Source of the DNA: Minisyncoccia bacterium
GTDB lineage: Bacteria; Patescibacteriota; Minisyncoccia; Phycocordibacterales; UBA918
Assembly (NCBI GenBank): GCA_041736805.1
Contig: JBGSSW010000008.1
Location: 2,897 to 66,896, forward strand
Direction of reading: 5' to 3'
Length of the DNA: 64,000 nucleotides
Within the stretch, counting starts at the first letter, position 1. Each line of letters begins with the position of its first letter. A program made the position numbers and the translations under genes. Below are positions 5,624 through 59,110 of the stretch, piece after piece. Below the pieces are notes generated by a model, which ran no database searches, had not been told where the DNA came from, and was given only the letters and a program-made list of their open reading frames with translations.

Positions 5624-6313
5624 ATGACCAAGACCACTCATCATATTGCCTTCCGTGCTAACGGTCTCTATGAAGAAATTGTTACGCAGGCGATGCAGGG
5701 CCTCGATATAGAGGTGACGGTTTTCCCACAAGGCGAAGAAGTCATCCGTAATCAGCTCAAGCACTTGAATGAGGTCTGTATAGAAAACCTTTGGATTGAC
5801 GGTACCGTAGCCAGGGCTTGCGGTTCAGATTACGGTAGTCTGGATCAGATTATCGCTTCTGCATACTGCGAATCGCTCGGTGTTGCGACAAGTGTCGAAC
5901 TTACGGCGAGGCTTCTCGGAATGGTGGCAAAGAAATTCTCTCCTTCCAAAGTCTGGCTGGTTTCGCGAAATATCGACGACCATCCAGTTGGTGAAAAGAA
6001 GGATGATCGAGGTATCACCTGCTGGGAAACTAACGGGTCAGACTTCTACGCCAAACTCATCGAGCAGGTGACAGGGCTGGCTCCGGTAGCTAACAGTTGC
6101 TTCGATAGCTTCATTAAAGCTACAGAGTCCGAGTGGGTCATCGTCGATCGGCATGCCTTTGGGTGGGTAGATATCCAAGGTGGTCTCACTCTCGTGGTTC
6201 CGCCTGAGAACCTGGCTCGAAGCGTTGCTTTGCTTGGCCTCATTGGTCAAGATGAAAGCGATGCCTGGAAGCAGGCCGCAGTTGAGAAGCTGCGCAAGAA
6301 GTTGATTGGCTGA
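5624..6313 (+). CDS. hypothetical protein (GC-rich ORF)
   Basis: ORF of 229 aa with RBS aaggaga. GC about 52%. Confidence 0.45.
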   Translation: MTKTTHHIAFRANGLYEEIVTQAMQGLDIEVTVFPQGEEVIRNQLKHLNEVCIENLWIDGTVARACGSDYGSLDQIIASAYCESLGVATSVELTARLLGMVAKKFSPSKVWLVSRNIDDHPVGEKKDDRGITCWETNGSDFYAKLIEQVTGLAPVANSCFDSFIKATESEWVIVDRHAFGWVDIQGGLTLVVPPENLARSVALLGLIGQDESDAWKQAAVEKLRKKLIG

Positions 6314-7132: not shown

Positions 7133-7417
7133 TTAGTCTTTAAGACCAAAAAGGTATTTGTCCATTTCTTCGGCATTACTAAAAGCTGGAGACAAATTTT
7201 TTCCTTCTTTTATATCTTTCTCAACCTCTTCTAGTACGCCTTCTAAATATGGAGTCATTTGATAGGCGGCGCTAAAGCTTACTGAACGAGTTCTAATGAA
7301 CTGTTTAAGAGAAGCTGTTACCAAGGCGGAAAGAGTAAAACCAAGCTCCTTGGCCAGTTTCTGGGCTTCTTCTTTGACTTTTTTATCAGTTTTAATGTTG
7401 ATCATTGTTGTCTTCAT
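7133..7417 (-). CDS. RelB/DinJ family antitoxin
   Basis: A 94-aa protein with N-terminal RHH-like INIKTDKKVKEEAQKLAKELGFTLSALVTASLKQFI, immediately upstream of the toxin gene. Confidence 0.5.
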   Translation of the reverse strand: MKTTMINIKTDKKVKEEAQKLAKELGFTLSALVTASLKQFIRTRSVSFSAAYQMTPYLEGVLEEVEKDIKEGKNLSPAFSNAEEMDKYLFGLKD

Positions 7418-7482
7418 ATCTAAAGTATATACGTTGGATTGATGACGTCAAGTTCTGTTTTGGATTATGCTACTATGAGTCT

Positions 7483-8094
7483 ATGAAAAAGCAGGTTTTT
7501 TATATTCATGGGGGAGATTCTTTTTCTATGCAGGAGGATTTTTTGCAGTATTTGCAGAAAGTCCCTGTTAGACCACTGCCTGGGGACGAGACCTTTTTTC
7601 GTTGGACACAGACTATGGTTGAGTTGGGCGAGGAGTATGAGGTGTTTATGCCGAGTATGCCCAATAAGCAAAATGCAGATTATGAAGAGTGGAAGATTTG
7701 GTTTGAAAGACATTTTGAATACCTACGAGACGAGGTGATTTTGGTGGGTTGGTCGCTTGGGGGGATGTTCTTGGCTAAGTATTTAAGTGAAAATACCCTG
7801 CCTTTTAAAGTCAGCTCGCTGATGCTTTTGGCTGCACCCTGTGGAACCTTTGCTGACGAGCAAGGTAATGATTGCGGCTCTTTCCAGTTTAATCCCGAAA
7901 TACTGGCAAAATTGCCGGAAAGAGCCAGTAAAATAGCCATTTTCCACTCCGAAGACGACTTTGTCGTGCCTTACCAACACGCTCTTGAGTTTAAAAAACA
8001 CCTACCGGAGGCCGAGTTTATGAGTTTTACCGATAAAAACCACTTTTTAATCCCCGAATTTTCCGAATTATTAACTAAAATAAGGGAAAACTAG
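7483..8094 (+). CDS. alpha/beta hydrolase (RBBP9/YdeN-like serine hydrolase)
   Basis: A GWSLGG nucleophile elbow and FYIHGG near the N-terminus. The ATG at 7483 is preferred over the TTG at 7405. Confidence 0.6.
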   Translation: MKKQVFYIHGGDSFSMQEDFLQYLQKVPVRPLPGDETFFRWTQTMVELGEEYEVFMPSMPNKQNADYEEWKIWFERHFEYLRDEVILVGWSLGGMFLAKYLSENTLPFKVSSLMLLAAPCGTFADEQGNDCGSFQFNPEILAKLPERASKIAIFHSEDDFVVPYQHALEFKKHLPEAEFMSFTDKNHFLIPEFSELLTKIREN

Positions 8095-8153
8095 CTTTTG
8101 CGACTGTAAGAATTCGTTAAACTGTGCGTCTACGTATATAATGGTTTTCACAT

Positions 8154-8738
8154 ATGCCGAGTCCCAAAAAGACAATCGATGCAGCGGAAAGCCAAGAGGA
8201 ACGTTTTTTGAAAGCTTTCGAGGAATATAGCGATGCTCTTTTTCGCCATGCGGCGATCAGGATTAGCAACCGTGAGCGGTCAATTGATGTGGTACATGAT
8301 ACTTTTACTAAAGTATGGTCATACATCAGGTCCGGACACGAAATTGATTCTTATCGGTCATTTTTATACAAAGTCTTAAACAACCTCATCATTGATGAGT
8401 ACCGCAAGCAAAAAGAACAGTCGCTGGATGCCTTACTTGAAGTAGAAGGAGTAGACGAAGGATCCTTCCCAGAACTATCTGAAAATTCTGTTGAGGCTCT
8501 GGCAGCAACTCTCGATGGACGCAAAGCCTTCGAATTATTAAAGGAGCTGCCTGAAGAATATCGGGAAGTCATCATCTTTCGTTTCGTCGATGGTCTCGGT
8601 CCCAAAGAAATTGCTGACTTGATTGAAGAATCAGAAAACGTGGTCTCGGTCAGAATCCACCGAGCCCTCAAATCCCTAAGGATAAAAATTGAGGAGGGAA
8701 ATGAAAGAGCTGAAAGTAAAAGAAACACAAAAAAATAA
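8154..8738 (+). CDS. ECF-type RNA polymerase sigma factor (sigma-70 family)
   Basis: Region 2 (DVVHDTFTKVWSYI) and region 4 (EIADLIEESENVVSVRIHRALKSL). A tatataat sequence lies upstream. Confidence 0.75.
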   Translation: MPSPKKTIDAAESQEERFLKAFEEYSDALFRHAAIRISNRERSIDVVHDTFTKVWSYIRSGHEIDSYRSFLYKVLNNLIIDEYRKQKEQSLDALLEVEGVDEGSFPELSENSVEALAATLDGRKAFELLKELPEEYREVIIFRFVDGLGPKEIADLIEESENVVSVRIHRALKSLRIKIEEGNERAESKRNTKK

Positions 8739-10143
8739 CATGAAACGCTTTAGCGAACAATTTAAGAAAAAGTCAGAAACTCTTCGTTTGAGTGTGTCTG
8801 AAAAACGCGAGCTTCGTGAGCGGGTTGTTTCGTATATGGAGTATCATCCTCTTCCAGTTAAAGATACTAATTTTAATAATGAATCCGCCGGTGACGCTGT
8901 CATTGAGTTTAATTTTGCCCAGTTTAAATCTTGGCCTAGTTGGCGAATTTTGAAGACAGCCGGGGCTTTAGTCGTTGTTTTGGCGGTCGGAGTTTCTTTC
9001 TGGGCAGAAAAAGCTGTCCCGGGAGACACTCTCTATGCAGTGAAGGTTGGTTTTAATGAAGAAATGAGAAGTACTCTAGCTAGAGGCTCTTATGAAAAGG
9101 TAGTTTGGGAAACACAACGATTAAACCGAAGAATTGCCGAGGCCAGACAGCTGGCTGATGAAGGAAGACTGACTGTCGAAGTAGAGGTAGAAGTGGCTGA
9201 CGCAGTGCGTGTGCATAGTGAAAACGCCCGCAAGGAAATTGAAAATTTAAAGTTGACAGACAAAGACGAGGCGACCATGGCCTCGATAGAACTTGAAACT
9301 GCTTTAGATGTCCAAACAACCTCACTGAAAAATCGTGATGATTCTGGTTTGGTAGGGCAGTCTACGGCTTTGATTCAGACCGTCTTGGGCCAATCACAAG
9401 CCATTGGACTTTCTTCGGCTGAAGACGACACCCTTCCAGCTTTAGATAAGCTGGTAGCAAAGGTAGAAAGTGAAACTACTAGAGCATATGAATTACTTGA
9501 GGGAGTTAAAAAGACAGCTACCGCTGAAGAGAGAAGAGACATAAAGCGCCGTCTGGACGATATTGAAAGAAAAATAACAAAGTCTAAAGCTTATTCAGAA
9601 GAAGATAACAGTTTATCTTCTAGACAAAGTTTGGTGGAAGTTCTACAACAGACTCATCGCTTGATTGTCTTCATGACTAATATTGATGTGCGGGAAAGTG
9701 TGACGGTAGAAGAAATTGTCCCGGTCACTTTGACGCTTGAAGAAAGAATTGACATAGTAAAAAAGCAAACAAGTGAGACTACTACTTTAATAGAAATGGT
9801 TGATGAGAAGTTGAATGCCACTAGTTCAGATTTAATTGATAAAGATGTATTAGCTAAAGTTGAGGTTGGTTTTGAACAAAGTAGCAGTTCTCTAGCCAAG
9901 ACACTAGACTTGATAGTTGTTGAACCTTTAGATATAGAGACGGTCGAAGGTTATAGTCTTGATGCTTATAACTTAATTTTTGATACGGCTGCTTTATTAA
10001 ACATACGCAACTCTATTCCTGAAACAGAGCTTGATGATATAGAGGAAGAGTCAGGAACCAGTACTGAAGAAGTTCTTCCAAAAGATGGAGAGGTTAGTAC
10101 TAGCACAAAAGCCACCACTACAGCAGTTGAACTAGATGTTTGA
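8701..10143 (+). CDS. putative anti-sigma factor / membrane protein with a long extracytoplasmic coiled-coil-rich domain
   Basis: Single TM (ALVVVLAVGVSFW) downstream of the ECF sigma. The ATG at 8701 has a GGAGG RBS but overlaps the sigma gene; the alternative ATG at 8740 abuts the sigma stop. Confidence 0.5.
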   Translation: MKELKVKETQKNNMKRFSEQFKKKSETLRLSVSEKRELRERVVSYMEYHPLPVKDTNFNNESAGDAVIEFNFAQFKSWPSWRILKTAGALVVVLAVGVSFWAEKAVPGDTLYAVKVGFNEEMRSTLARGSYEKVVWETQRLNRRIAEARQLADEGRLTVEVEVEVADAVRVHSENARKEIENLKLTDKDEATMASIELETALDVQTTSLKNRDDSGLVGQSTALIQTVLGQSQAIGLSSAEDDTLPALDKLVAKVESETTRAYELLEGVKKTATAEERRDIKRRLDDIERKITKSKAYSEEDNSLSSRQSLVEVLQQTHRLIVFMTNIDVRESVTVEEIVPVTLTLEERIDIVKKQTSETTTLIEMVDEKLNATSSDLIDKDVLAKVEVGFEQSSSSLAKTLDLIVVEPLDIETVEGYSLDAYNLIFDTAALLNIRNSIPETELDDIEEESGTSTEEVLPKDGEVSTSTKATTTAVELDV

Positions 10144-10297
10144 CAGTAAACTAAAATCAGTTATATTTACTAGTATGAAGGAAACAAATATCACCAAAGT
10201 AGCGATAGTAAATAATGATGAAAGGAGAAATTCTTTCTTTATGTTTATTACTTTTAGCTTCCTAGCGTGGTCGGTTTGTTTCTAATTTAGTACTCAC

Positions 10298-10338
10298 AAA
10301 AACAAAACCGGCCTCTCCTAGGGGTCGGTTTTGTTTTT
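10298..10338. terminator. rho-independent terminator
   Basis: aaaacaaaaccggcc-tctccta-ggggtcggttttgttttt. Confidence 0.55.
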
Positions 10339-10352
10339 GTGGGGTCTGTTGT

Positions 10353-10390
10353 TCGCGGGAGAATTTTAAAGCTTTAAAATTCTCCCGCGA
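10353..10390 (+). promoter_or_regulatory. perfect 15-bp hairpin (tcgcgggagaatttt-aaagcttt-aaaattctcccgcga) in the leader of the ATP-grasp gene
   Basis: The inverted repeat is read directly from the sequence. There is no U tail. Confidence 0.5.
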
Positions 10391-10393
10391 ATC

Positions 10394-10468
10394 GCAGGCT
10401 TTCCTTCACGGAGGAAATACTTATTCGCACAAGAGGTGCGGGACCCAGACTAGTCTGGGAAAGCCTGC
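10394..10468 (+). promoter_or_regulatory. candidate structured 5' leader / riboswitch-like element upstream of the ATP-grasp gene
   Basis: A closing helix gcaggcttt(cc)/(gg)aaagcctgc encloses hairpins cgcac-aagag-gtgcg and cccagact-agtctggg. A local alternative pairing tttcc/ggaaa is possible. Confidence 0.35.
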
Positions 10469-10513
10469 GACAGGTTCTTTAACAACGGTCAGACGACCAA
10501 AGAGGTGAAGTAA

Positions 10514-11629
10514 ATGCAAAACCAAGACAATGGCCAAGATTCAAATGTGGTGTTCCACAACGTCATCACTTCGTATCCGCCAAGTGAGTTGAAGGGTCTC
10601 AGGGGAGTGCCTAACTACGCCGCACGGGTGGTGGCGGCTTCGAAACCCGGGGACGTCGTCATTTTGCCTCCAAGCACGATGCCTTACTTGGGTTGGGCAA
10701 GGGGACACTTCGAAGAAGTGGGACTTAGGACAGCCACGGAGTTCCATCCAGGGGACAGCCATACAATGGCGTTTCTGTTGGGGAAACTACCCAACCATGG
10801 ACTCGACGTTTTTTTCTTCGACGAAGCGTGCCACAAGGCTCGTCCGCACCAGAAGTGGCTTCAACAAGCAGAGTATCTCAACTCGAAAAACAACTTCATT
10901 CAGCTCTGCGAAGTCCTTGGGGTGGAAACCCCCGAAACAACTATCTACAACAAGGTGGAGGAGGTGAAGGGTTTTCCGGAGATGCCTGTCTACGTCAAGA
11001 AGGCAGTATCGGCTTCTGGTTTTGGCGTTTGGCGTTGCGAGACTGATGAGCAGTTCCAAAATATCGTCATGCTGCAAGAAGCTCCCTTCCAGGTACAAGA
11101 GGCTTTGCCAATTGGGACACAGTTTCTCAATGTTCAATATCGAGTTGCCTCTTCAGGACAACTTGAGCACGGTCCGGTTACTCTCCAGATTCTGAAGGGT
11201 AACAGTCACGATGGCAATAGCTTCCCGGTATTGTGCGACAAACATGATATCTGGAGAAGCACGGATATCTTGGCACGGCATGCATTCGAGTCTGGAATGA
11301 GTGGTGTCTGGGCCTACGATGTGGCAGTGACAACGACCGGGCAAGTTTTGCCGATTGAGTGCAATCCTCGCTACAACGGTGCCAGCTACTACTCTATCGT
11401 CGCCGAAAAGCTCGGTGTCCAGGAGTGGGAGTCTCGTAACCTTGATTTCCGGGCTCGCACTTATGAAGGCTTCAAGCTGGGAGAGCTCTCCTATAACTCA
11501 AACAACGGCTTGGGGGTCGTTTTTGTCAACTGGGCTTGTGCCGGAGAAGGCATGATCGGCGTTTTCTTGGCTGGGCCACCGGCCACACGAGCAGAGTATT
11601 TGGAAGAGTTGAAAGCGCGGGTCAGCTAG
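10514..11629 (+). CDS. ATP-grasp domain protein (GC-rich)
   Basis: PVYVKKAVSASGFGVW resembles the P-loop/central ATP-grasp domain, and the C-terminal YDVAVTTTGQVLPIECNPRYNGAS resembles EVNxRxxG. GC is about 52-55%. Confidence 0.6.
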   Translation: MQNQDNGQDSNVVFHNVITSYPPSELKGLRGVPNYAARVVAASKPGDVVILPPSTMPYLGWARGHFEEVGLRTATEFHPGDSHTMAFLLGKLPNHGLDVFFFDEACHKARPHQKWLQQAEYLNSKNNFIQLCEVLGVETPETTIYNKVEEVKGFPEMPVYVKKAVSASGFGVWRCETDEQFQNIVMLQEAPFQVQEALPIGTQFLNVQYRVASSGQLEHGPVTLQILKGNSHDGNSFPVLCDKHDIWRSTDILARHAFESGMSGVWAYDVAVTTTGQVLPIECNPRYNGASYYSIVAEKLGVQEWESRNLDFRARTYEGFKLGELSYNSNNGLGVVFVNWACAGEGMIGVFLAGPPATRAEYLEELKARVS

Positions 11630-11659
11630 TTTCCGCATTTGTTCTGAAGGTGTTCTTTG

Positions 11660-11695
11660 GAGGCGGTGAGTGCTTGCACTCACCGCCTCTTTTTA
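11660..11695. terminator. rho-independent terminator
   Basis: gaggcggtgagtg-cttg-cactcaccgcctc followed by ttttt. Confidence 0.65.
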
Positions 11696-11726
11696 TTTAT
11701 GGTAAGTTAGGTAGAATTCAATAATT

Positions 11727-12629
11727 ATGAAAAAATTTGCAATTGTTATCCACGGCGGTTCAGGAGCAATAAGTGATGTTGCTTTATATCAAGAAAGCTT
11801 GGGCCGTGTTATTGAAGAAGTTTCTAAATTAGCTAAAGAAGGCGAAAGTGCTTTGAATTTAGTAACAAAAGCCGTGGTCTTATTAGAGAATGATCCTCTC
11901 TATAACGCTGGTCGTGGTTCTGTATTAAATACAGAAGGATTTGTGGAATGTGACGCTTCTATTATGAACGGTATTAATATTGAAGCTGGTGCAGTCGCTG
12001 GAGTTTCAGGAATTAAGAATCCAGTGCTCTTAGCAAGAAAGGTGATGGAAAAAAGTTCTCATGTCATGTTGATAGGAAAGGGAGCAGAAGGTTTTGCTCT
12101 GGATAATGGAATTGAAACTGAGTCGTTGGAATACTTTGTTACTGAAGCTAGAAAAAAACAATTGGAGCAAGCCAAGGAAAGCGATAACATAACTTTAGAT
12201 CACAATGAAGTAACTGAAAAGAAACTGGGTACCGTAGGAGCGGTCGCTATTGATTCGGATGGTAATATTGCAGCCGCGACATCAACTGGAGGATTAGTTA
12301 ATAAAAAATTTGGTCGAGTGGGAGATTCTCCAATCATTGGGGCGGGTGTCTATGCTGAAAATGAACTTTGTGGTGTTTCAGCAACCGGTTATGGCGAACA
12401 ATTTATTCGTACCACTTTAGCCAAACATATGGCTGAATGGATGCGGTATCATGAAGGTAGTGCTCAAGCCGGAGCAGAAGAGGGAATAAACTTCTTAGTT
12501 AAAAAGGTAAATGGTCTTGGTGGAGTTATATTAGTCGATTCTGATTATAAAATTGGAGTTGCCCACAGCACACCTATGATACTGGCTGCTTCTAAAACGT
12601 GGGATACCGAGATGAAATTGTATTGTTAA
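11727..12629 (+). CDS. iaaA: isoaspartyl peptidase / L-asparaginase (Ntn hydrolase, Asparaginase_2 family)
   Basis: GTVGAVAIDSDGNIAAATSTGG...GRVGDSPIIGAG closely matches the IaaA/plant-type asparaginase autoprocessing region. Confidence 0.85.
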   Translation: MKKFAIVIHGGSGAISDVALYQESLGRVIEEVSKLAKEGESALNLVTKAVVLLENDPLYNAGRGSVLNTEGFVECDASIMNGINIEAGAVAGVSGIKNPVLLARKVMEKSSHVMLIGKGAEGFALDNGIETESLEYFVTEARKKQLEQAKESDNITLDHNEVTEKKLGTVGAVAIDSDGNIAAATSTGGLVNKKFGRVGDSPIIGAGVYAENELCGVSATGYGEQFIRTTLAKHMAEWMRYHEGSAQAGAEEGINFLVKKVNGLGGVILVDSDYKIGVAHSTPMILAASKTWDTEMKLYC

Positions 12630-12670
12630 AAATTAAGAGTCCGTTATATCAATTTAATTGATAGCTAGTT

Positions 12671-13426
12671 ATGACCAAGATTCTTGCTGTCCAATTCCGC
12701 ATCAATCAGTTTGCTTTAGAACAAGAACAGAAATGTTTTAAGCGTGAACTTACCAAAGACTCAATTGTCGAGGTGGATTTTGTTAGCGCCCTAGATAAAT
12801 CAATTGATTGGAATTTCCCAGAAATAATCTTGGAGGGATATAGTGCTGTGGTACTTGGTGGTTCGGGAGATTTAGATTTTGATGGCCAACGAGCGGTTGA
12901 TGATGAGGTAAGAAAAATATCTCTAGAATTAGTAGGGCAACTTAGAGCGTTTTTTCAGTACCTGTTTGATAACGACATTCCTACTTTAGGTATTTGTTAT
13001 GGACACCAAATACTAGGAGCTTTTGCCGGAGCTCAGGTCCACTGCGATGAGGGACAAAAGAAAACTAGGTCACATGAAGTAAAGTTATTGGTTGACAGGA
13101 AGGATTATTTTCTGTTTACTGATCTGCCTGATTCATTTCAAGCCCATTATGGACATAAAGATGTTTTGGATAGAGTGCCAGAAGGAGCGATCTTGCTAAT
13201 GAGTGGGGGTGAGGAGTGTCAGGTTTCGGCTTTGCAGTATAAAAATAATATCTATACAGTCCAGTTTCATCCAGAACTCACTCTGGAGGACATGGTTTTT
13301 AGAATGAAGCATAGTCCAGGATATTTACCAGAAGGCATTATAGCTGAAGAAATCTTTAAAGCTGAATCACATTCAAATATAATTTTGCGAAACTTTGGCA
13401 AGCTGGTGGTGAGTATAAAACCCTAA
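12671..13426 (+). CDS. class I glutamine amidotransferase-like protein (GATase1 / peptidase C26 fold)
   Basis: Cys nucleophile in the GICYGHQ motif and VQFHPE His-Glu. Confidence 0.65.
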   Translation: MTKILAVQFRINQFALEQEQKCFKRELTKDSIVEVDFVSALDKSIDWNFPEIILEGYSAVVLGGSGDLDFDGQRAVDDEVRKISLELVGQLRAFFQYLFDNDIPTLGICYGHQILGAFAGAQVHCDEGQKKTRSHEVKLLVDRKDYFLFTDLPDSFQAHYGHKDVLDRVPEGAILLMSGGEECQVSALQYKNNIYTVQFHPELTLEDMVFRMKHSPGYLPEGIIAEEIFKAESHSNIILRNFGKLVVSIKP

Positions 13427-13440
13427 TTTGAGTTTGTTGG

Positions 13441-13478
13441 CCGAGGAAAAGTCTCGTTAGAGACTTTTCCTCGGTTTG
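13441..13478. terminator. rho-independent terminator
   Basis: ccgaggaaaagtctc-gttag-agacttttcctcgg followed by tttg. Confidence 0.6.
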
Positions 13479-13526
13479 CAAAGACCGAAAGGGGCCGCAG
13501 GTGCGGTATCAGTTCAATTGAAGTAA

Positions 13527-14117
13527 ATGGAGTTGAAAAACATGGCAATGGCCACACAAGCAGTGCAACGGAGACAGGTTTATCCGGCAGAAAAAACAAG
13601 CTTCAAAACGAAAGGAGATACCAAGAAGATCTTGAACGACAAGAACAGCTTCATCAATTGCTGGCTCAACAAGGGTTTGGGAACCACACCCGCCACGGTT
13701 ACGGTTATGCGCGGCGGAAAGCTGCCTGGACTACACATCACTTATCCCGTGGTAGTGAAATCCGCCAAAGGTTCGCTGTTTGTGGTTTGCGAAAAAGAAA
13801 AGCAAATTGCGTCGGCAATCAAGAAGTTGCGAGGGGCTCCTTTCCAGGTCCAACAGTACTTGACGGGATTTACCTTTCTTCGACTTAATCTCGATTTCAA
13901 CCCGGGTAGGAAAATGGTCGAGGTCTTTGAAGAGAGGTCTGTCGGTGGGAAAGTTTGCTACGTCCCGCTGGAGAGTGTCAATCAACAGTACTTGATTGCA
14001 AGAGGTGCCATCAGGAGACTTGTCGAGACCATTCATCGTTTCGGAGTCAATCAGTTTTCTCTGACAGTGGCCGTTCGCCAACAAACCGGGTACATCATCA
14101 GCTGTCGTACCAACTGA
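13527..14117 (+). CDS. RimK-like ATP-grasp fragment/short protein (GC-rich)
   Basis: YPVVVKSAKGSLFVV...QQYL resembles the RimK central domain (YPVVVKP..GS.G.GV, QEYI). The N-terminal domain appears missing. Confidence 0.4.
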   Translation: MELKNMAMATQAVQRRQVYPAEKTSFKTKGDTKKILNDKNSFINCWLNKGLGTTPATVTVMRGGKLPGLHITYPVVVKSAKGSLFVVCEKEKQIASAIKKLRGAPFQVQQYLTGFTFLRLNLDFNPGRKMVEVFEERSVGGKVCYVPLESVNQQYLIARGAIRRLVETIHRFGVNQFSLTVAVRQQTGYIISCRTN

Positions 14118-14180
14118 CCGACATTACGACCTTGGTCAATTAGATCATGCAAAGCCTTCCGGTAACGGGAGGCTTTATCT

Positions 14181-15275
14181 TTAGTTACTTAGTTCTTGTG
14201 AAAGAAGACTGATTAAAAAAGGGGCTAGGGTTTTGGTAAAGACACTTGAACGGAAAGCTAGGTTACCAGTGATGTTTTTATCTAATGAGAAACCGGTTTC
14301 TTCAAGAATAGTTCTATGGATATGAGACATGGTGATGGCCCGTAAACTTCCCTGCCCGTCGACACTATCATCACCTCTAGTTACAATCATACCAATCACT
14401 TTTCCTTCTTTATTTACAATTGGACCACCAGACGAGCCCTCAGCTCCTACTTTGCTGCCATGAATTGAAAAGACATCAGCGTAATTTGAATTAAAAGTGT
14501 AAAGTTCAGAAATTGTTGTGGTAGCAGATACAGATAGCAGGGGGGTGTTGGGGCCGTTCCTTATTAAGTCTGAAGCGGGGTATCCGGTAGCACTGACCTC
14601 TTTTCCTTTGATAGTGCGGGGCAATAATTCAGAATCAATTGCCAAGGCCGGAAGTACTGCTGGCAGGGGGCTACCATCTAGGGTTTCGCTGACATAAAGA
14701 AGAGCGTAATCTCGCTCCCCAGTACCAGTTGGGGCAACATCATCAATCATGGCAGCATTTTGTTGCACCCAAGTAGGTGGAATGTAGAGTAATTCAGCCC
14801 TGAACTTCGCTGTGGCTGGGGTGCCTTGTCTAATAATACATTCCGATTTACCTAAGGCTTCAGTAGCTCCAATAAGTAGAAATTGAGCTACATGGGCATT
14901 AGTAATAATGACACCGTCACTATGAACAAAAAATCCGGTGCCGGTGGTAGTTCTAATTGTGGTCGGAGTAGTAAAAGTACAAAATAAATTAACTAAAGCT
15001 TCGGTGGGGTTGGTTGTTACATAGTTGTTAGACGTAGCTTCAATAGCCGCTGCCTTTTGGTATTCAGCACTACGCAACAAAATATCAGGAAAGGCATTTG
15101 AATTAAAGATGGAAGGAAGATAAGACAGTGAATTATCATCTTTTTTTTCATCGGCCACCTGAATAATTTCCGCTTCAGACCCAGGAATTAGACTAAGGAT
15201 TTTGTCAGCTATTTGGTTGGTAAAAGCCAAGTAAACTGTAAATAGAGAGATGGTGACATCAATAAAGAATTGCAT
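14181..15275 (-). CDS. trypsin-like serine protease (S1 family, DegP/HtrA-like catalytic domain, no obvious PDZ)
   Basis: GTGFFVHSDGVIITNAHV (His), GSSGGPIVNKEGKVIGM (Ser), and an N-terminal TM. Confidence 0.7.
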   Translation of the reverse strand: MQFFIDVTISLFTVYLAFTNQIADKILSLIPGSEAEIIQVADEKKDDNSLSYLPSIFNSNAFPDILLRSAEYQKAAAIEATSNNYVTTNPTEALVNLFCTFTTPTTIRTTTGTGFFVHSDGVIITNAHVAQFLLIGATEALGKSECIIRQGTPATAKFRAELLYIPPTWVQQNAAMIDDVAPTGTGERDYALLYVSETLDGSPLPAVLPALAIDSELLPRTIKGKEVSATGYPASDLIRNGPNTPLLSVSATTTISELYTFNSNYADVFSIHGSKVGAEGSSGGPIVNKEGKVIGMIVTRGDDSVDGQGSLRAITMSHIHRTILEETGFSLDKNITGNLAFRSSVFTKTLAPFLISLLSQELSN

Positions 15276-22905: not shown

Positions 22906-23069
22906 AGTACGGGCTAGTGTACGTAAATATAAAAGATTTGCAACCAGATTGTAAAAATTAGGTTGTGTTGCAAAACGATAAGTTTTTGTTAATCTAGATT
23001 TTAGAAGTCAGAGTCCTTGCCGTGGTGGTAAGTGCTAGATGGCTTGTCCTTGTGTATTGGAGAATTGCT

Positions 23070-23507
23070 ATGGTATCCCCGAAAGTGAAGTTCCATCTCT
23101 ACGACTTTTCTGGCCTAGCCATGTTGGATGAAAGGCTGAGGGCTGTCACGGCAGAGCAAATTGCTGCTCTTGAACCCCTAGGCTCAAACTTGCCAAGCAA
23201 TGCCATTGTGTTGGGTTACGTTCCTGAACCGCTCAAGGCTTTGATGGTGTTGAACGATGAGTTCGGGGATATGTACTATCCCATTCTCGAATTCGAACTC
23301 AGGCGTACTTTTCCAAACCTGAAGCAGGTTTCGACGGTCAGTTTCGGGCCGAACTTCGAAGTTTTCTACCTTCCCAAACAATCAACTGCCGAGAAGTTGG
23401 ACATCGATTTGGGTGAAGCGTACCCACGGGAGATTAGGCCGCTAGCCTTCGATGAGGCACATGCGGTCGGGCATGGTGACCTTGTCTTCTTAAGTCGGCG
23501 GAAGTAG
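23070..23507 (+). CDS. hypothetical protein (GC-rich ORF)
   Basis: ATG at 23070 with a ggag RBS. GC about 52%. Confidence 0.35.
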   Translation: MVSPKVKFHLYDFSGLAMLDERLRAVTAEQIAALEPLGSNLPSNAIVLGYVPEPLKALMVLNDEFGDMYYPILEFELRRTFPNLKQVSTVSFGPNFEVFYLPKQSTAEKLDIDLGEAYPREIRPLAFDEAHAVGHGDLVFLSRRK

Positions 23508-58606: not shown

Positions 58607-59110
58607 TTGTACAATGTAGTATTCAGGAGAATTGAATTGGAAACCAGAACAGAAGTTGGAGTTCATGAGAGTCTCATTCCGTTTCAGCAAAAACGACAAC
58701 GGGTCGTCATGGTCGCCCTTATCGTCGACCCGAACAACCGTTTTCTGGTGTTGAATGGACTCTTGCCAGAACAGCCACATGAGTTTGTGGGCAACTGCAC
58801 ACATGAAGGTCTGATGTCCTATGTCACACGCTTGGTTGAATGGAAACTACACTTCTCGATCAAGCGGATTTACCAGATGGCCAAGGTCCACTATCCGAAT
58901 CCTGACCCGACCCCCAATGACCCGATGTACGTGGTCGTACGGGTTGACGTCAAGATTCCTCGGACCATTGCCGGCGGTGAATGGGTTTCGTCGGCCGAAC
59001 GGGCCAAGCAAATCGGCGGTGATGATCCGATGATCCTCAATTGCGCTCAATTGCACATGGGCTCCAACCTGGCTTGGCAGACATCCAAACCTGAAGTTCA
59101 GCTGAGCTAG
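58607..59110 (+). CDS. hypothetical protein (GC-rich ORF between fusA and tuf)
   Basis: 167 aa, GC about 55%, divergent from the 57990 gene. Confidence 0.4.
   Translation: MYNVVFRRIELETRTEVGVHESLIPFQQKRQRVVMVALIVDPNNRFLVLNGLLPEQPHEFVGNCTHEGLMSYVTRLVEWKLHFSIKRIYQMAKVHYPNPDPTPNDPMYVVVRVDVKIPRTIAGGEWVSSAERAKQIGGDDPMILNCAQLHMGSNLAWQTSKPEVQLS

What the first reader, a model, noticed from the sequence alone, without database searches (positions are those of the whole stretch)
10514..14117. Mosaic ATP-grasp / isoaspartyl-peptidase / GATase1 / RimK-like cluster: candidate isopeptide (beta-Asp / gamma-Glu) peptide or polymer metabolism module
Four co-directional genes run together. A GC-rich ATP-grasp ligase (10514-11629) precedes an unmistakable IaaA-type isoaspartyl peptidase (11727-12629; GTVGAVAIDSDGNIAAATSTGG). 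Next comes a class-I glutamine amidotransferase or C26 gamma-glutamyl-hydrolase-like protein (12671-13426; GICYGHQ, QFHPE). The last is a GC-rich RimK-like ATP-grasp fragment (13527-14117; YPVVVKSAKGS). From established knowledge, ATP-grasp ligases of the RimK and cyanophycin-synthetase type form beta-Asp and gamma-Glu isopeptide bonds, and IaaA and C26 enzymes hydrolyse exactly those bonds. No Mur-ligase domain is present, so this is not canonical cyanophycin. The combination suggests a compact synthesis and turnover system for an isopeptide-linked peptide or polymer. The two ligase genes are about 52-55% GC, while the two hydrolase genes match the roughly 40% background. That points to piecewise acquisition.
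Basis: partly seen in the sequence, partly recalled or inferred. Interest (0 to 1): 0.7.

Follow-up and report, generated by a model that had tools for sequence, protein, structure and literature searches.

The report
ATP-grasp ligase paired with isoaspartyl peptidase
An uncharacterised ATP-dependent amino-acid ligase sits beside an isoaspartyl peptidase in many bacterial phyla, which suggests they make and break an aspartyl dipeptide rather than a polymer, and here the ligase has its own elaborate RNA control region.

Summary
All four ORFs and the quoted motifs are real. Gene 1 (10514-11629) is an intact ATP-grasp ligase, but Pfam misses it. Its closest relatives are dipeptide and peptide ligases (LdmS, PGM1, BesA), not RimK or cyanophycin synthetase. 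Every catalytic residue is invariant in 86 homologues. Gene 2 is a canonical IaaA. It lies directly downstream of this ligase in 54 of 86 loci (Patescibacteria, Gammaproteobacteria, SAR324). M20 deacylases fill that slot elsewhere. This is a conserved two-gene ligase-plus-hydrolase module, apparently undescribed.

Gene 3 (GATase) belongs to a large, highly conserved patescibacterial family and adjoins the pair only in this clade. Gene 4 is a truncated paralogue of gene 1 that is under selection but has lost its Mg ligands and catalytic Arg.

The cluster is not one operon. A conserved terminator and a leaderless promoter separate the ligase from IaaA.

The high GC3 of the ligase genes persists in every syntenic relative, so it is not evidence of recent piecewise acquisition.

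Upstream of the ligase I found a Phe/Trp-rich leader-peptide attenuator and a covarying structured RNA that has no Rfam match.

Best reading: synthesis and turnover of an aspartyl dipeptide. The product is inferred, not shown.

The parts
10140..10167 (+). Promoter-like site (TTGACA-16-TATATT, 11 of 12 matches). It overlaps the stop codon of the upstream anti-sigma gene. Its -10 box ends 7 nt before the ATG of the small ORF, which implies a leaderless transcript.
10175..10285 (+). Small leader ORF of 36 aa (MKETNITKVAIVNNDERRNSFFMFITFSFLAWSVCF). Its C-terminal half has 6 Phe and 1 Trp in 18 residues. It is conserved in relatives. Its last codons (UGG UCG GUU) form the 5' strand of an anti-terminator.
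   Evidence: 36-aa genes were called at the same place in L007 and L167
10299..10340 (+). Attenuator terminator: a long perfect hairpin followed by a U-run. Its 5' arm can pair instead with the end of the small ORF (10268-10285).
   Evidence: the anti-terminator helix scores -15 to -26 kcal/mol in 10 of 10 loci, and the two strands covary
10344..10486 (+). Conserved structured leader RNA. It comprises a P1 hairpin and a multi-stem domain closed by GCAGGC/GCCUGC, followed by a conserved GUUCUU element ahead of the ribosome-binding site. It has no Rfam family.
10514..11629 (+). ATP-grasp ligase of the L-amino-acid-ligase type, with an intact active site (K125, K162, Q193, Q195, D269, E282, N284, R286). 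GC3 is .59.
11659..11700 (+). Intrinsic terminator after the ligase gene (14-bp stem, 9 GC pairs, T-run). It is conserved in position in all 11 patescibacterial loci examined.
11712..11717 (+). Conserved TAGAAT -10 box 9 nt upstream of the IaaA ATG, with no Shine-Dalgarno sequence. This suggests a separate, leaderless IaaA-GATase transcript.
11727..12629 (+). IaaA-type isoaspartyl aminopeptidase / class-2 L-asparaginase. It has the nucleophile Thr169 in the GT autocleavage motif and the GRVGDSP aspartate-binding motif.
12671..13426 (+). Stand-alone class-I glutamine amidotransferase with the Cys109/His200/Glu202 triad. It belongs to a large, conserved patescibacterial family.
13441..13520 (+). 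Hairpins upstream of ORF4. They are shared with covarying stems in L006 and partly in L171, and end in CAGUUC like the ORF1 leader.
   Evidence: inspected by eye only
13527..14117 (+). Mini ATP-grasp: a truncated paralogue of gene 1 matching its residues ~118-286. It keeps the ATP-site Lys and the QVQ hinge. It has lost the Mg ligands (D269 to T, E282 to S) and ends before the catalytic Arg. It is under purifying selection. GC3 is .57.
14151..14176 (.). Terminator-like hairpin between ORF4 and the convergent Trypsin_2 protease gene.

Best explanation
The core of this region is a conserved two-gene module. It consists of an ATP-grasp L-amino-acid ligase of an uncharacterised family (gene 1) and a hydrolase for aspartyl amide bonds (gene 2, IaaA).

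Proposed mechanism (inferred): the ligase phosphorylates a carboxylate of an aspartate-like amino acid with ATP. It then joins that carboxylate to the alpha-amino group of a second amino acid, giving a dipeptide. Because the partner is an isoaspartyl aminopeptidase, the product is most likely a beta-aspartyl-X dipeptide or a close analogue. IaaA, or an M20 deacylase in other lineages, cleaves it again. The pair would then control the level of a small aspartyl dipeptide. It does not build a polymer.

Gene 3 (GATase) is a housekeeping-type patescibacterial enzyme that is co-transcribed with IaaA in this clade only. Gene 4 is a truncated, catalytically dead paralogue of gene 1, probably a nucleotide-binding pseudoenzyme.

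In this Saccharibacteria-like lineage the ligase is its own transcription unit. Expression appears to be gated by a Phe/Trp-rich leader-peptide attenuator and then by a second conserved structured RNA. The unit ends at its own terminator.

Shown: fold, catalytic residues, gene-order conservation, RNA structures. Inferred: substrates, type of linkage, regulatory logic.
For: Ligase identity:
- The AF2 model has pLDDT 94.4. The best PDB matches are an ATP-grasp peptide ligase (8ynd), LdmS (7r8q), PGM1 (3wvq) and BesA.
- A profile of the family against PDB finds LdmS at E=2.5e-10.
- K125, K162, Q193, Q195, N206, D269, E282, N284, R286 and N288 are invariant in 86 homologues from at least four phyla.

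Substrate clues:
- R38 aligns with LdmS Arg47, which binds the carboxylate of the incoming amino acid.
- Q225, N235 and N288 align with the LdmS aspartate pocket (Gln244, Asn255, Asn307).
- These correspondences come and PMC9486568.

Module:
- IaaA lies co-directionally within 400 bp downstream in 54 of 86 loci (Saccharibacteria, many Gammaproteobacteria, SAR324). M20 enzymes sit adjacent in six more, and also in L003 after a tandem ligase paralogue.
- The nearest characterised enzyme, LdmS, also sits in a two-gene operon with a peptidase, hmrA.
- The IaaA keeps the nucleophile Thr and the GRVGD aspartate-binding motif of E. coli EcAIII.
- IaaA enzymes accept many beta-aspartyl dipeptides (PMC10206079).
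- DapE-type M20 enzymes are reported to act as aspartyl peptidases (a title cited in PMC3092495).

Regulation.
Against: - No product is known for any member of the family.
- LdmS makes an alpha-linked Asp-Met, which IaaA would not cleave. Two of the six LdmS signature residues differ here (Tyr252 to His, Ser309 to Ala).
- In this clade a strong terminator and a separate promoter lie between the ligase and IaaA, so co-expression is not assured.
- About 22 of 86 loci, mostly cyanobacteria and short contigs, have no adjacent hydrolase.
- In L099 and L171-173 the same genomic slot carries other cargo without IaaA.
- Making and breaking the same bond is a futile cycle unless the two activities are regulated separately.
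- The Phe-rich small ORF could simply encode a small membrane peptide. The L010 version has only one Phe.
Confidence: 0.5

Rival explanations
1. Supply model. The neighbouring hydrolase does not degrade the ligase product. Instead it feeds the ligase: IaaA releases free L-Asp from Asn or from isoaspartyl peptides, and M20 enzymes release an amino acid from N-acyl or dipeptide precursors. The ligase then converts that amino acid into an alpha-linked dipeptide, as proposed for hmrA/ldmS.
For: - The closest characterised system pairs LdmS with a peptidase, HmrA. HmrA prefers Met-X dipeptides, not the Asp-Met product of LdmS.
- LdmS activates the alpha-carboxylate of Asp, and the equivalent pocket residues are largely kept here.
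- In this clade IaaA is co-transcribed with a second amidohydrolase (the GATase) that would release Glu.
Against: - Three unrelated hydrolase types (Ntn IaaA, M20A ArgE/DapE-like, M20D) fill the same slot next to a ligase whose active site never changes. This is easier to explain if all of them act on the single ligase product.
- Free Asp is an abundant metabolite and hardly needs a dedicated supplier.
Confidence: 0.2
2. No functional module in this organism. The four genes are independent units that happen to occupy a variable slot between the sigma/anti-sigma pair and the protease gene. Their adjacency is inherited synteny.
For: - A terminator and a promoter separate the ligase from IaaA.
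- The slot holds a 310-aa unrelated ORF behind the same leader in L099. It holds only the mini ATP-grasp in L171-173.
- The GATase family is far more widespread than the ligase family.
Against: - The ligase-IaaA order recurs in phyla that share no other synteny with this window: Gammaproteobacteria, SAR324 and other Saccharibacteria.
- In gammaproteobacterial loci the gap carries no terminator.
- The isoaspartyl dipeptidases IaaA and IadA together occur in only about 43% of complete genomes, so chance adjacency is very improbable (PMC10206079).
Confidence: 0.12
3. The cluster is a compact system that builds and recycles an isopeptide-linked oligomer or polymer (poly-beta-Asp or poly-gamma-Glu, RimK- or cyanophycin-like). 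It would use two ligases and two isopeptidases.
For: - ATP-grasp enzymes include polymer-forming members. This rests on established knowledge and was not tested here.
- IaaA and C26-type GATases do cleave beta-Asp and gamma-Glu bonds. The GATase shows weak similarity to gamma-glutamyl peptidase 1 at E=1e-5.
Against: - No RimK or cyanophycin synthetase similarity appears in Pfam, NCBIfam, PDB sequence or fold searches.
- The second 'ligase' lacks its catalytic residues.
- No cyanophycinase or Mur-ligase-type gene recurs near the 86 loci.
- The GATase is not a conserved partner of the ligase.
Confidence: 0.05
4. Amidoligase model. The ATP-grasp enzyme amidates a carboxylate, for example Asp to Asn, using ammonia released by the neighbouring amidohydrolases (IaaA from Asn, GATase from Gln).
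For: - Two ammonia-releasing enzymes lie directly downstream in this clade.
- ATP-grasp chemistry can capture ammonia, as in carbamoyl-phosphate synthetase. This rests on established knowledge.
Against: - The invariant Arg38 matches the LdmS residue that binds the carboxylate of an incoming amino acid, which points to an amino-acid nucleophile rather than ammonia.
- M20 deacylases replace IaaA in other lineages and do not release ammonia from Asn.
- The GATase is absent from most loci.
Confidence: 0.05

Closest known systems
hmrA/ldmS operon of Staphylococcus aureus (LdmS, an L-aspartate--L-methionine ATP-grasp ligase, with the M20D peptidase HmrA; PDB 7r8p/7r8q; PMC9486568)
   Same: - LdmS is the best sequence hit for the family profile among solved structures (E=2.5e-10) and a top fold match.
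- The Mg ligands, the catalytic Arg and the Arg that binds the incoming amino acid are the same. Three of the five aspartate-pocket residues are also the same.
- Both are two-gene ligase-plus-peptidase arrangements.
- In both cases, expression signals tied to amino-acid starvation sit upstream of a ligase that would consume an amino acid.
   Different: - Identity is only ~15%. The NCBIfam LdmS score is 19.7 bits against a cut-off of 475.
- Tyr252 is His and Ser309 is Ala here.
- The usual partner is an Ntn-type isoaspartyl peptidase rather than an M20D peptidase.
- The family is spread over Patescibacteria, Gammaproteobacteria, SAR324, Bdellovibrionota and cyanobacteria, not Firmicutes.
Other ATP-grasp amino-acid and peptide ligases (PGM1 3wvq, Streptomyces peptide ligase 8ynd, BesA 8yi6, BL00235 3vot)
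   Same: Same three-domain fold, with Foldseek E of 1e-15 to 1e-18 and TM-scores of ~0.7. All join small-molecule carboxylates and amines.
   Different: Those enzymes sit in natural-product gene clusters. This family has a minimal two-gene context and an active site that is invariant across phyla.
EcAIII / IaaA isoaspartyl aminopeptidase of E. coli (PDB 2zak)
   Same: Gene 2 aligns over its full length at E=4e-69. It keeps the autocleavage Gly-Thr, the GRVGDSP motif and the TG motif.
   Different: It scores below the NCBIfam equivalog cut-off (262 against 567 bits). In E. coli the gene is not paired with an ATP-grasp ligase, to my knowledge.
Cyanophycin metabolism (CphA1, cyanophycinase, IaaA/IadA; PMC10206079)
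   Same: It combines an ATP-grasp-containing synthetase with a beta-aspartyl dipeptidase that completes turnover. Clustering with iaaA has been described.
   Different: No Mur-ligase-like or N-domain is present, and no cyanophycinase lies nearby. The ligase has single-domain architecture and resembles dipeptide ligases.
RimK poly-alpha-glutamate ligase
   Same: It belongs to the ATP-grasp superfamily.
   Different: Neither ORF gives a RimK hit in any search.
Leader-peptide transcription attenuators (pheA, pheST, trp, his leaders)
   Same: All have a short ORF enriched in one class of codon. The end of that ORF overlaps an anti-terminator strand that competes with an intrinsic terminator.
   Different: - The peptide is 36 aa, longer than the classical leaders.
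- It appears to be translated from a leaderless transcript.
- It is followed by a second conserved RNA domain.
- It regulates a ligase rather than a biosynthetic operon.
- It occurs in a lineage thought to lack amino-acid biosynthesis.

Membership tests
ATP-grasp superfamily (gene 1) | Three-domain ATP-grasp fold | tested here: met
   The AF2 model has pLDDT 94.4. Foldseek against PDB gives E~1e-18 to LdmS, PGM1 and PurK.
ATP-grasp superfamily (gene 1) | ATP-binding lysines, two acidic Mg ligands plus Asn, and the catalytic Arg (E-x-N-x-R motif) | tested here: met
   K125, K162, D269, E282, N284 and R286 are invariant in 86 of 86 homologues.
ATP-grasp superfamily (gene 1) | A curated HMM hit above threshold | tested here: not met
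   No Pfam family scores below E=0.01. The best NCBIfam hit is PRK06849 at 40 bits against a cut-off of 406.
LdmS (L-Asp--L-Met ligase) | The six signature residues Arg47, Tyr252, Asn255, Arg305, Asn307 and Ser309 (criterion of PMC9486568) | tested here: not met
   Four of six are identical: R38, N235, R286 and N288. Tyr is replaced by H232 and Ser by A290.
LdmS (L-Asp--L-Met ligase) | NCBIfam equivalog score | tested here: not met
   19.7 bits against a cut-off of 475.
RimK / cyanophycin synthetase type polymer ligases | RimK-type ATP-grasp domain, or a CphA N-domain plus a Mur-ligase-like domain | tested here: not met
   No such hits appear for gene 1 or gene 4 in Pfam, NCBIfam, PDB sequence or fold searches.
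IaaA / class-2 (plant-type) asparaginase, Ntn hydrolase (gene 2) | Asparaginase_2 domain with the Gly-Thr autocleavage site and the Arg/Asp pair that binds the aspartyl moiety | tested here: met
   PF01112 at E=7e-93. G168-T169 and G196-RVGDSP are present. It aligns to EcAIII at E=4e-69.
IaaA / class-2 asparaginase (gene 2) | Autoproteolytic maturation and beta-aspartyl dipeptidase activity | not testable with these tools
   This needs purified protein.
Class-I glutamine amidotransferase / peptidase C26 (gene 3) | GATase fold with the Cys-His-Glu triad | tested here: met
   PF00117 at E=4e-22, with Cys109, His200 and Glu202. C26 is only marginal at 20.9 bits against 20.5.
Class-I glutamine amidotransferase (gene 3) as a specific partner of the ligase | Co-occurrence with the ligase across lineages | tested here: not met
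   It adjoins the pair only in WIN, L002, L006, L166, L167 and L168. Its family has over 340 close members against 31 for the ligase.
ATP-grasp superfamily (gene 4) | ATP-grasp fold | tested here: met
   hhalign to the gene 1 family gives 97.3% probability at E=2.7e-11. The AF2 model has pLDDT 84.9, and Foldseek matches Ddl and L-amino-acid ligases at E~1e-7.
ATP-grasp superfamily (gene 4) | Catalytic Mg ligands, catalytic Arg and the substrate-binding N-domain | tested here: not met
   D269 is replaced by T180 and E282 by S192. The protein ends before the Arg, and the N-domain is absent. The same holds in most of the nine family members.
Leader-peptide transcription attenuator | A short ORF enriched in regulatory codons, plus mutually exclusive anti-terminator and terminator helices | tested here: met
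   - The peptide has 6 Phe and 1 Trp in 18 residues. Only 4 of 16,827 proteome windows reach 6 Phe.
- The anti-terminator forms in 10 of 10 loci.
- The two strands covary.
- Function itself was not tested.
Riboswitch / cis-regulatory RNA (10344-10486) | A conserved structure supported by covariation | tested here: met
   In 13 sequences, 95% of cells are paired and 16 pairs show compensatory changes. None of 500 shuffles reached the observed values, and the slid controls scored far lower.
Riboswitch / cis-regulatory RNA (10344-10486) | Membership of a described RNA family, or a known ligand | tested here: not met
   No Rfam match at gathering score. At relaxed threshold only spurious hairpin matches appear. 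Ligand binding cannot be tested with these tools.

The most novel reading that the evidence does not exclude
Free beta-aspartyl (isoaspartyl) dipeptides are usually regarded as waste from protein damage or as cyanophycin breakdown products. On this reading they are made on purpose by a widespread, previously unrecognised ATP-grasp ligase and removed by a dedicated IaaA or M20 partner. The dipeptide would then be a regulated metabolite, serving for storage, signalling or stress protection. In Saccharibacteria-like episymbionts, synthesis would be switched on by aromatic amino-acid starvation through a leader-peptide attenuator, and by a new riboswitch-like RNA that senses a related ligand. The mini ATP-grasp would act as a nucleotide-sensing regulator.
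Probability: 0.25. Interest if true: 0.75.

Novelty: new variant of a known kind. Interest (0 to 1): 0.55.

Why it matters
- **An orphan family gains a testable function.** The finding ties an ATP-grasp family of about 320 species-level members (sulfur-oxidising Gammaproteobacteria, cyanobacteria, SAR324 and the candidate phyla radiation) to a specific hydrolase partner. That gives a concrete hypothesis: an aspartyl dipeptide is made and unmade. A cultured carrier, Thiohalocapsa halophila DSM 6210, is available for experiments.
- **Dipeptide metabolites may be broader than thought.** If confirmed, this would extend the still puzzling LdmS/HmrA paradigm of dipeptide metabolites well beyond staphylococci.
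- **Isoaspartyl dipeptides may be deliberate products.** They may not always be damage products.
- **Regulation in reduced genomes.** The regulatory region shows that ultra-small patescibacterial genomes use classical ribosome-mediated attenuation together with an unclassified structured RNA. This bears on how these reduced symbionts sense amino-acid supply from their hosts.
- **Possible enzyme-synthesis value.** Ligases that take Asp as the acyl donor are also of interest for enzymatic dipeptide synthesis.

Tried and rejected
- **Curated HMMs.** Pfam and NCBIfam give nothing at threshold for genes 1 and 4. Their identity had to come from structure and profile comparison.
- **RimK or cyanophycin-like polymer ligase.** Rejected; there is no similarity in any search.
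- **Graspetide (RiPP) maturase acting on the upstream small ORF.** I considered this because of a weak MvdD hit (E=0.007). I rejected it for three reasons:
  - The fold neighbours are free amino-acid ligases.
  - The peptide's conserved part is hydrophobic, with no acidic core.
  - The ligase active site is invariant in phyla where I did not see the small ORF.
- **Anti-phage defence system.** PADLOC gives no hits for genes 1-4.
- **Recent horizontal acquisition as the cause of the GC contrast.** Rejected. The GC3 excess is present in all nine syntenic relatives, and the identity matrices of the ligase and its neighbours are congruent.
- **Gene 4 as a decaying pseudogene.** Rejected for three reasons:
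  - It belongs to a nine-member family of uniform length.
  - Substitutions follow the order position 3 > 1 > 2.
  - 46 of 77 conserved residues use different codons.
- **A shared origin for the other GC3-rich orphan ORFs in the window.** They show no similarity to genes 1 or 4 or to each other.
- **The 310-aa ORF behind the same leader in L099 as a divergent ATP-grasp.** hhalign probability is 0.2%.
- **The metagenome pattern scan for the leader.** It returned 78 stretches, but only about eight were true instances. The rest were GC-rich coding sequence.
- **Literature searches** for ATP-grasp with IaaA, isoaspartyl or Saccharibacteria found no description of this pairing.
- **Organism names.** None could be obtained for the window or its closest relatives.

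Full report
**Observation.** The four co-directional ORFs are present at exactly the stated coordinates, and the quoted motifs are there. Pfam confirms gene 2 as Asparaginase_2 (E=7e-93). It confirms gene 3 as a class-I glutamine amidotransferase (E=4e-22), with peptidase C26 only marginal. Genes 1 and 4 give no Pfam or NCBIfam hit at threshold. GC content is 52.3%, 39.6%, 39.3% and 48.6% for genes 1 to 4, against 41.0% for the window. The contrast lies in third codon positions: GC3 is .59.27.33 and .57, against a window mean of .376 with sd .083.

**Gene 1 is a functional ATP-grasp ligase of the amino-acid-ligase type.**
- A search of 5.8 billion proteins found only 31 relatives, some named 'ATP-grasp domain-containing protein'. 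A scan of species-representative genomes found 319.
- An AlphaFold model built on 28 homologues has pLDDT 94.4. Its best PDB matches are a Streptomyces ATP-grasp peptide ligase (8ynd), LdmS (7r8p/7r8q), PGM1 and BesA, followed by PurK.
- A family profile hits LdmS at E=2.5e-10.
- In 86 homologues the ATP-site lysines, the hinge glutamines, both Mg ligands, the Asn and the catalytic Arg (K125, K162, Q193, Q195, D269, E282, N284, R286) are invariant.
- The LdmS alignment and the published LdmS active-site analysis (PMC9486568) allow residue mapping. R38 corresponds to Arg47, which holds the carboxylate of the incoming amino acid. Q225, N235 and N288 correspond to three of the five residues of the aspartate pocket. 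Tyr252 and Ser309 are replaced by an invariant His and a near-invariant Ala.
- The enzyme is therefore not an LdmS orthologue. It very probably joins an Asp-like acyl donor to a second amino acid; this is inferred. Nothing links it to RimK or cyanophycin synthetase.

**Gene 2 and the conserved pair.** Gene 2 aligns over its full length with E. coli EcAIII (E=4e-69). It keeps the Gly-Thr autocleavage site and the GRVGDSP motif that binds the aspartyl group.

I compared the neighbourhoods of the ligase in 86 non-redundant loci.
- An IaaA gene lies co-directionally within 400 bp downstream in 54 of them. These loci come from Saccharibacteria, many Gammaproteobacteria (Chromatiales, Thiohalocapsa, Thiodiazotropha, Ectothiorhodospiraceae, Thiotrichales) and SAR324.
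- In Falkowbacteria, a Patescibacteria-group MAG, Bdellovibrionota, one gammaproteobacterium and one unnamed contig with cyanobacterium-like neighbours, an M20 enzyme takes that place (also in Nomurabacteria, after a tandem paralogue). It is of the ArgE/DapE type, glutamate-carboxypeptidase-like, or M20D.
- No other gene family recurs in more than 13 loci.
- The closest characterised enzyme, LdmS, is likewise encoded in a two-gene operon with a peptidase.
- I found no paper that describes an ATP-grasp/IaaA pairing.

I conclude that ligase plus hydrolase is a real functional module. Three points suggest an aspartyl dipeptide, most likely beta-linked:
- IaaA is specific for beta-aspartyl substrates with a free alpha-amino acid head.
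- DapE-type enzymes act on N-succinyl and aspartyl amides (title cited in PMC3092495).
- The ligase active site does not change whichever partner sits beside it.

This step is inference. The alternative, that the hydrolase feeds the ligase, remains open.

**Gene 3 is not a specific partner.** The GATase has an intact Cys109/His200/Glu202 triad. It belongs to a large family of 60-77% identical proteins spread over Patescibacteria, with more than 340 hits. It adjoins the pair only in the window and five close relatives. There it follows IaaA with a gap of 1-93 bp (1-44 bp in five of the six loci). Elsewhere it is absent from the pair.

**Gene 4 is a truncated, degenerate paralogue of gene 1.**
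- It has a 45%-identical counterpart at the same position in L006 (E=6e-41). An exhaustive search of 1.84 billion representative proteins found only nine family members, all 174-198 aa.
- Profile comparison aligns the family to residues 118-286 of gene 1 (97.3% probability). The model (pLDDT 84.9) matches the ATP-grasp core of Ddl, L-amino-acid ligases and PurK.
- The ATP-site Lys and the QVQ hinge remain. D269 is Thr and E282 is Ser. The protein stops before the catalytic Arg, and the substrate-binding N-domain is missing.
- Substitution patterns show purifying selection on the protein.
- In L171-173 a family member stands alone in the slot, with no ligase, IaaA or GATase. It is therefore not an obligate subunit of gene 1.
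- I regard it as a pseudoenzyme, possibly nucleotide-binding. Its role is unknown.

**Transcription units.** In all eleven patescibacterial loci examined, the ligase gene ends with a strong GC-rich hairpin and a U-run (window 11659-11700). Downstream lies a conserved TAGAAT box 6-9 nt before the IaaA start codon, with no Shine-Dalgarno sequence. This implies a separate, leaderless IaaA-GATase transcript. Two gammaproteobacterial loci lack the terminator.

**Upstream control region.** The 370-bp region upstream of gene 1 is densely organised.
- A near-consensus promoter (10140-10167) precedes a 36-codon ORF (10175-10285) that is conserved in relatives.
- The C-terminal half of that ORF carries 5-7 Phe and 1-3 Trp in six of seven versions. 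In the window's own proteome, only 4 of 16,827 windows of 18 residues reach six Phe.
- The last codons of this ORF can pair with the 5' arm of the following terminator (10299-10340). The alternative helix forms in nascent-RNA folds of all ten loci tested (-15 to -26 kcal/mol), and the two strands covary.
- This is the architecture of a ribosome-mediated attenuator, plausibly responsive to Phe-tRNA charging.
- A second element follows at 10344-10486. Its single-sequence fold has z=-6.9. A covariance model finds it in 13 loci. On that alignment 95% of cells pair, 16 pairs carry compensatory changes, and no shuffle or slid control comes close.
- Rfam has no match for it.
- In twelve loci it precedes the ligase gene. 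In L099 it precedes an unrelated 310-aa ORF.

**GC content.** The ligase gene exceeds its neighbours in GC3 in nine syntenic relatives, by about .05-.30 (narrowest in L168 and L169). The mini ATP-grasp does the same. Pairwise identities show that the ligase evolves about twice as fast as IaaA, the GATase and the protease, but with the same branching pattern. Third positions are close to saturation between the window and L006. The GC3 excess is therefore ancestral and actively maintained, not a trace of recent import. I have no explanation for what maintains it.

**Verdict.** The system is best described as a new variant of the amino-acid-ligase-plus-dipeptidase theme, not a polymer module. Two of the four genes are peripheral. 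The most interesting additions are three: the cross-phylum ligase-IaaA pairing, the mini ATP-grasp family, and the two-stage RNA control region.

Noticed in passing
window 10140-10340: A promoter is followed by a leaderless 36-codon ORF rich in Phe and Trp. The 3' end of that ORF competes with an intrinsic terminator, giving the architecture of a classical leader-peptide attenuator. It is conserved in L002, L006, L007, L167, L099, L130, L123, L097 and L010.
   Followed up: yes
window 10344-10486: A conserved structured RNA with strong covariation and no Rfam family. It is found in 13 loci, always in the same genomic slot, and is a riboswitch candidate with unknown ligand. A middle segment (A/G)UUCGC could pair alternatively with the 3' strand of P1. 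The conserved GUUCUU could pair with either the Shine-Dalgarno sequence or an SD-like loop. Both pairings were seen by eye only.
   Followed up: partly
window 10514-11629 and 13527-14117; L002, L006, L007, L008, L010, L166-L169, L171: The ligase gene and its mini paralogue keep a GC3 excess over neighbouring genes (about .2-.3 in most relatives, about .05-.15 in L014, L168 and L169). This holds in every relative despite near-saturated synonymous divergence and vertical descent. It is unexplained.
   Followed up: partly
window 11659-11726: A conserved terminator is followed by a TAGAAT box 6-9 nt before the IaaA ATG, with no ribosome-binding site. This suggests leaderless mRNAs may be common in this lineage, since the small ORF at 10175 also looks leaderless.
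   Followed up: partly
L099 153-1085 (- strand); L171 5508-6095: The slot between the anti-sigma gene and the protease gene carries different cargo in different relatives. In L099 it holds a 310-aa ORF with no similarity to the ligase, sitting behind the same attenuator and leader. In L171-173 it holds only a mini ATP-grasp.
   Followed up: partly
window 13441-13520; L006 8285-8375: Gene 4 has its own upstream hairpins. Their stems covary between the window and L006, and the region ends in CAGUUC, which resembles the end of the gene 1 leader.
   Followed up: no
window 5624-6313, 23022-23507, 58607-59110: These are three further GC3-rich ORFs (.54-.60) with no Pfam domain. They show no similarity to each other or to genes 1 and 4.
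   Followed up: partly
L003 8001-13706 (Candidatus Nomurabacteria, JACKFN010000002.1): Two tandem paralogues of the ligase are followed by an ArgE/DapE-type M20 enzyme, a GNAT acetyltransferase and an AstE/AspA-type (aspartoacylase-like) hydrolase. This hints at an N-acylated aspartyl compound in that lineage.
   Followed up: no
L062 11308-12741 and three other cyanobacterial loci: A BT1-family (folate-biopterin type) transporter gene lies just downstream of the ligase in four cyanobacterial loci (including Brasilonema) that lack an adjacent hydrolase.
   Followed up: no
window 7405-10143 and 14181-15275: Several genes flank the slot in all close relatives: an alpha/beta hydrolase, an ECF-type sigma factor, a DUF5667 anti-sigma-like protein and a convergent Trypsin_2 protease. 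The protease gives weak PADLOC hits to RT-Protease models (E~1e-10), through its protease domain only.
   Followed up: no
L009 9772-9878; L012 9802-9976: Falkowbacteria loci give weak covariance-model hits (E of 2e-6 to 0.01) just upstream of their ligase gene. These are probably only hairpins or terminators.
   Followed up: no
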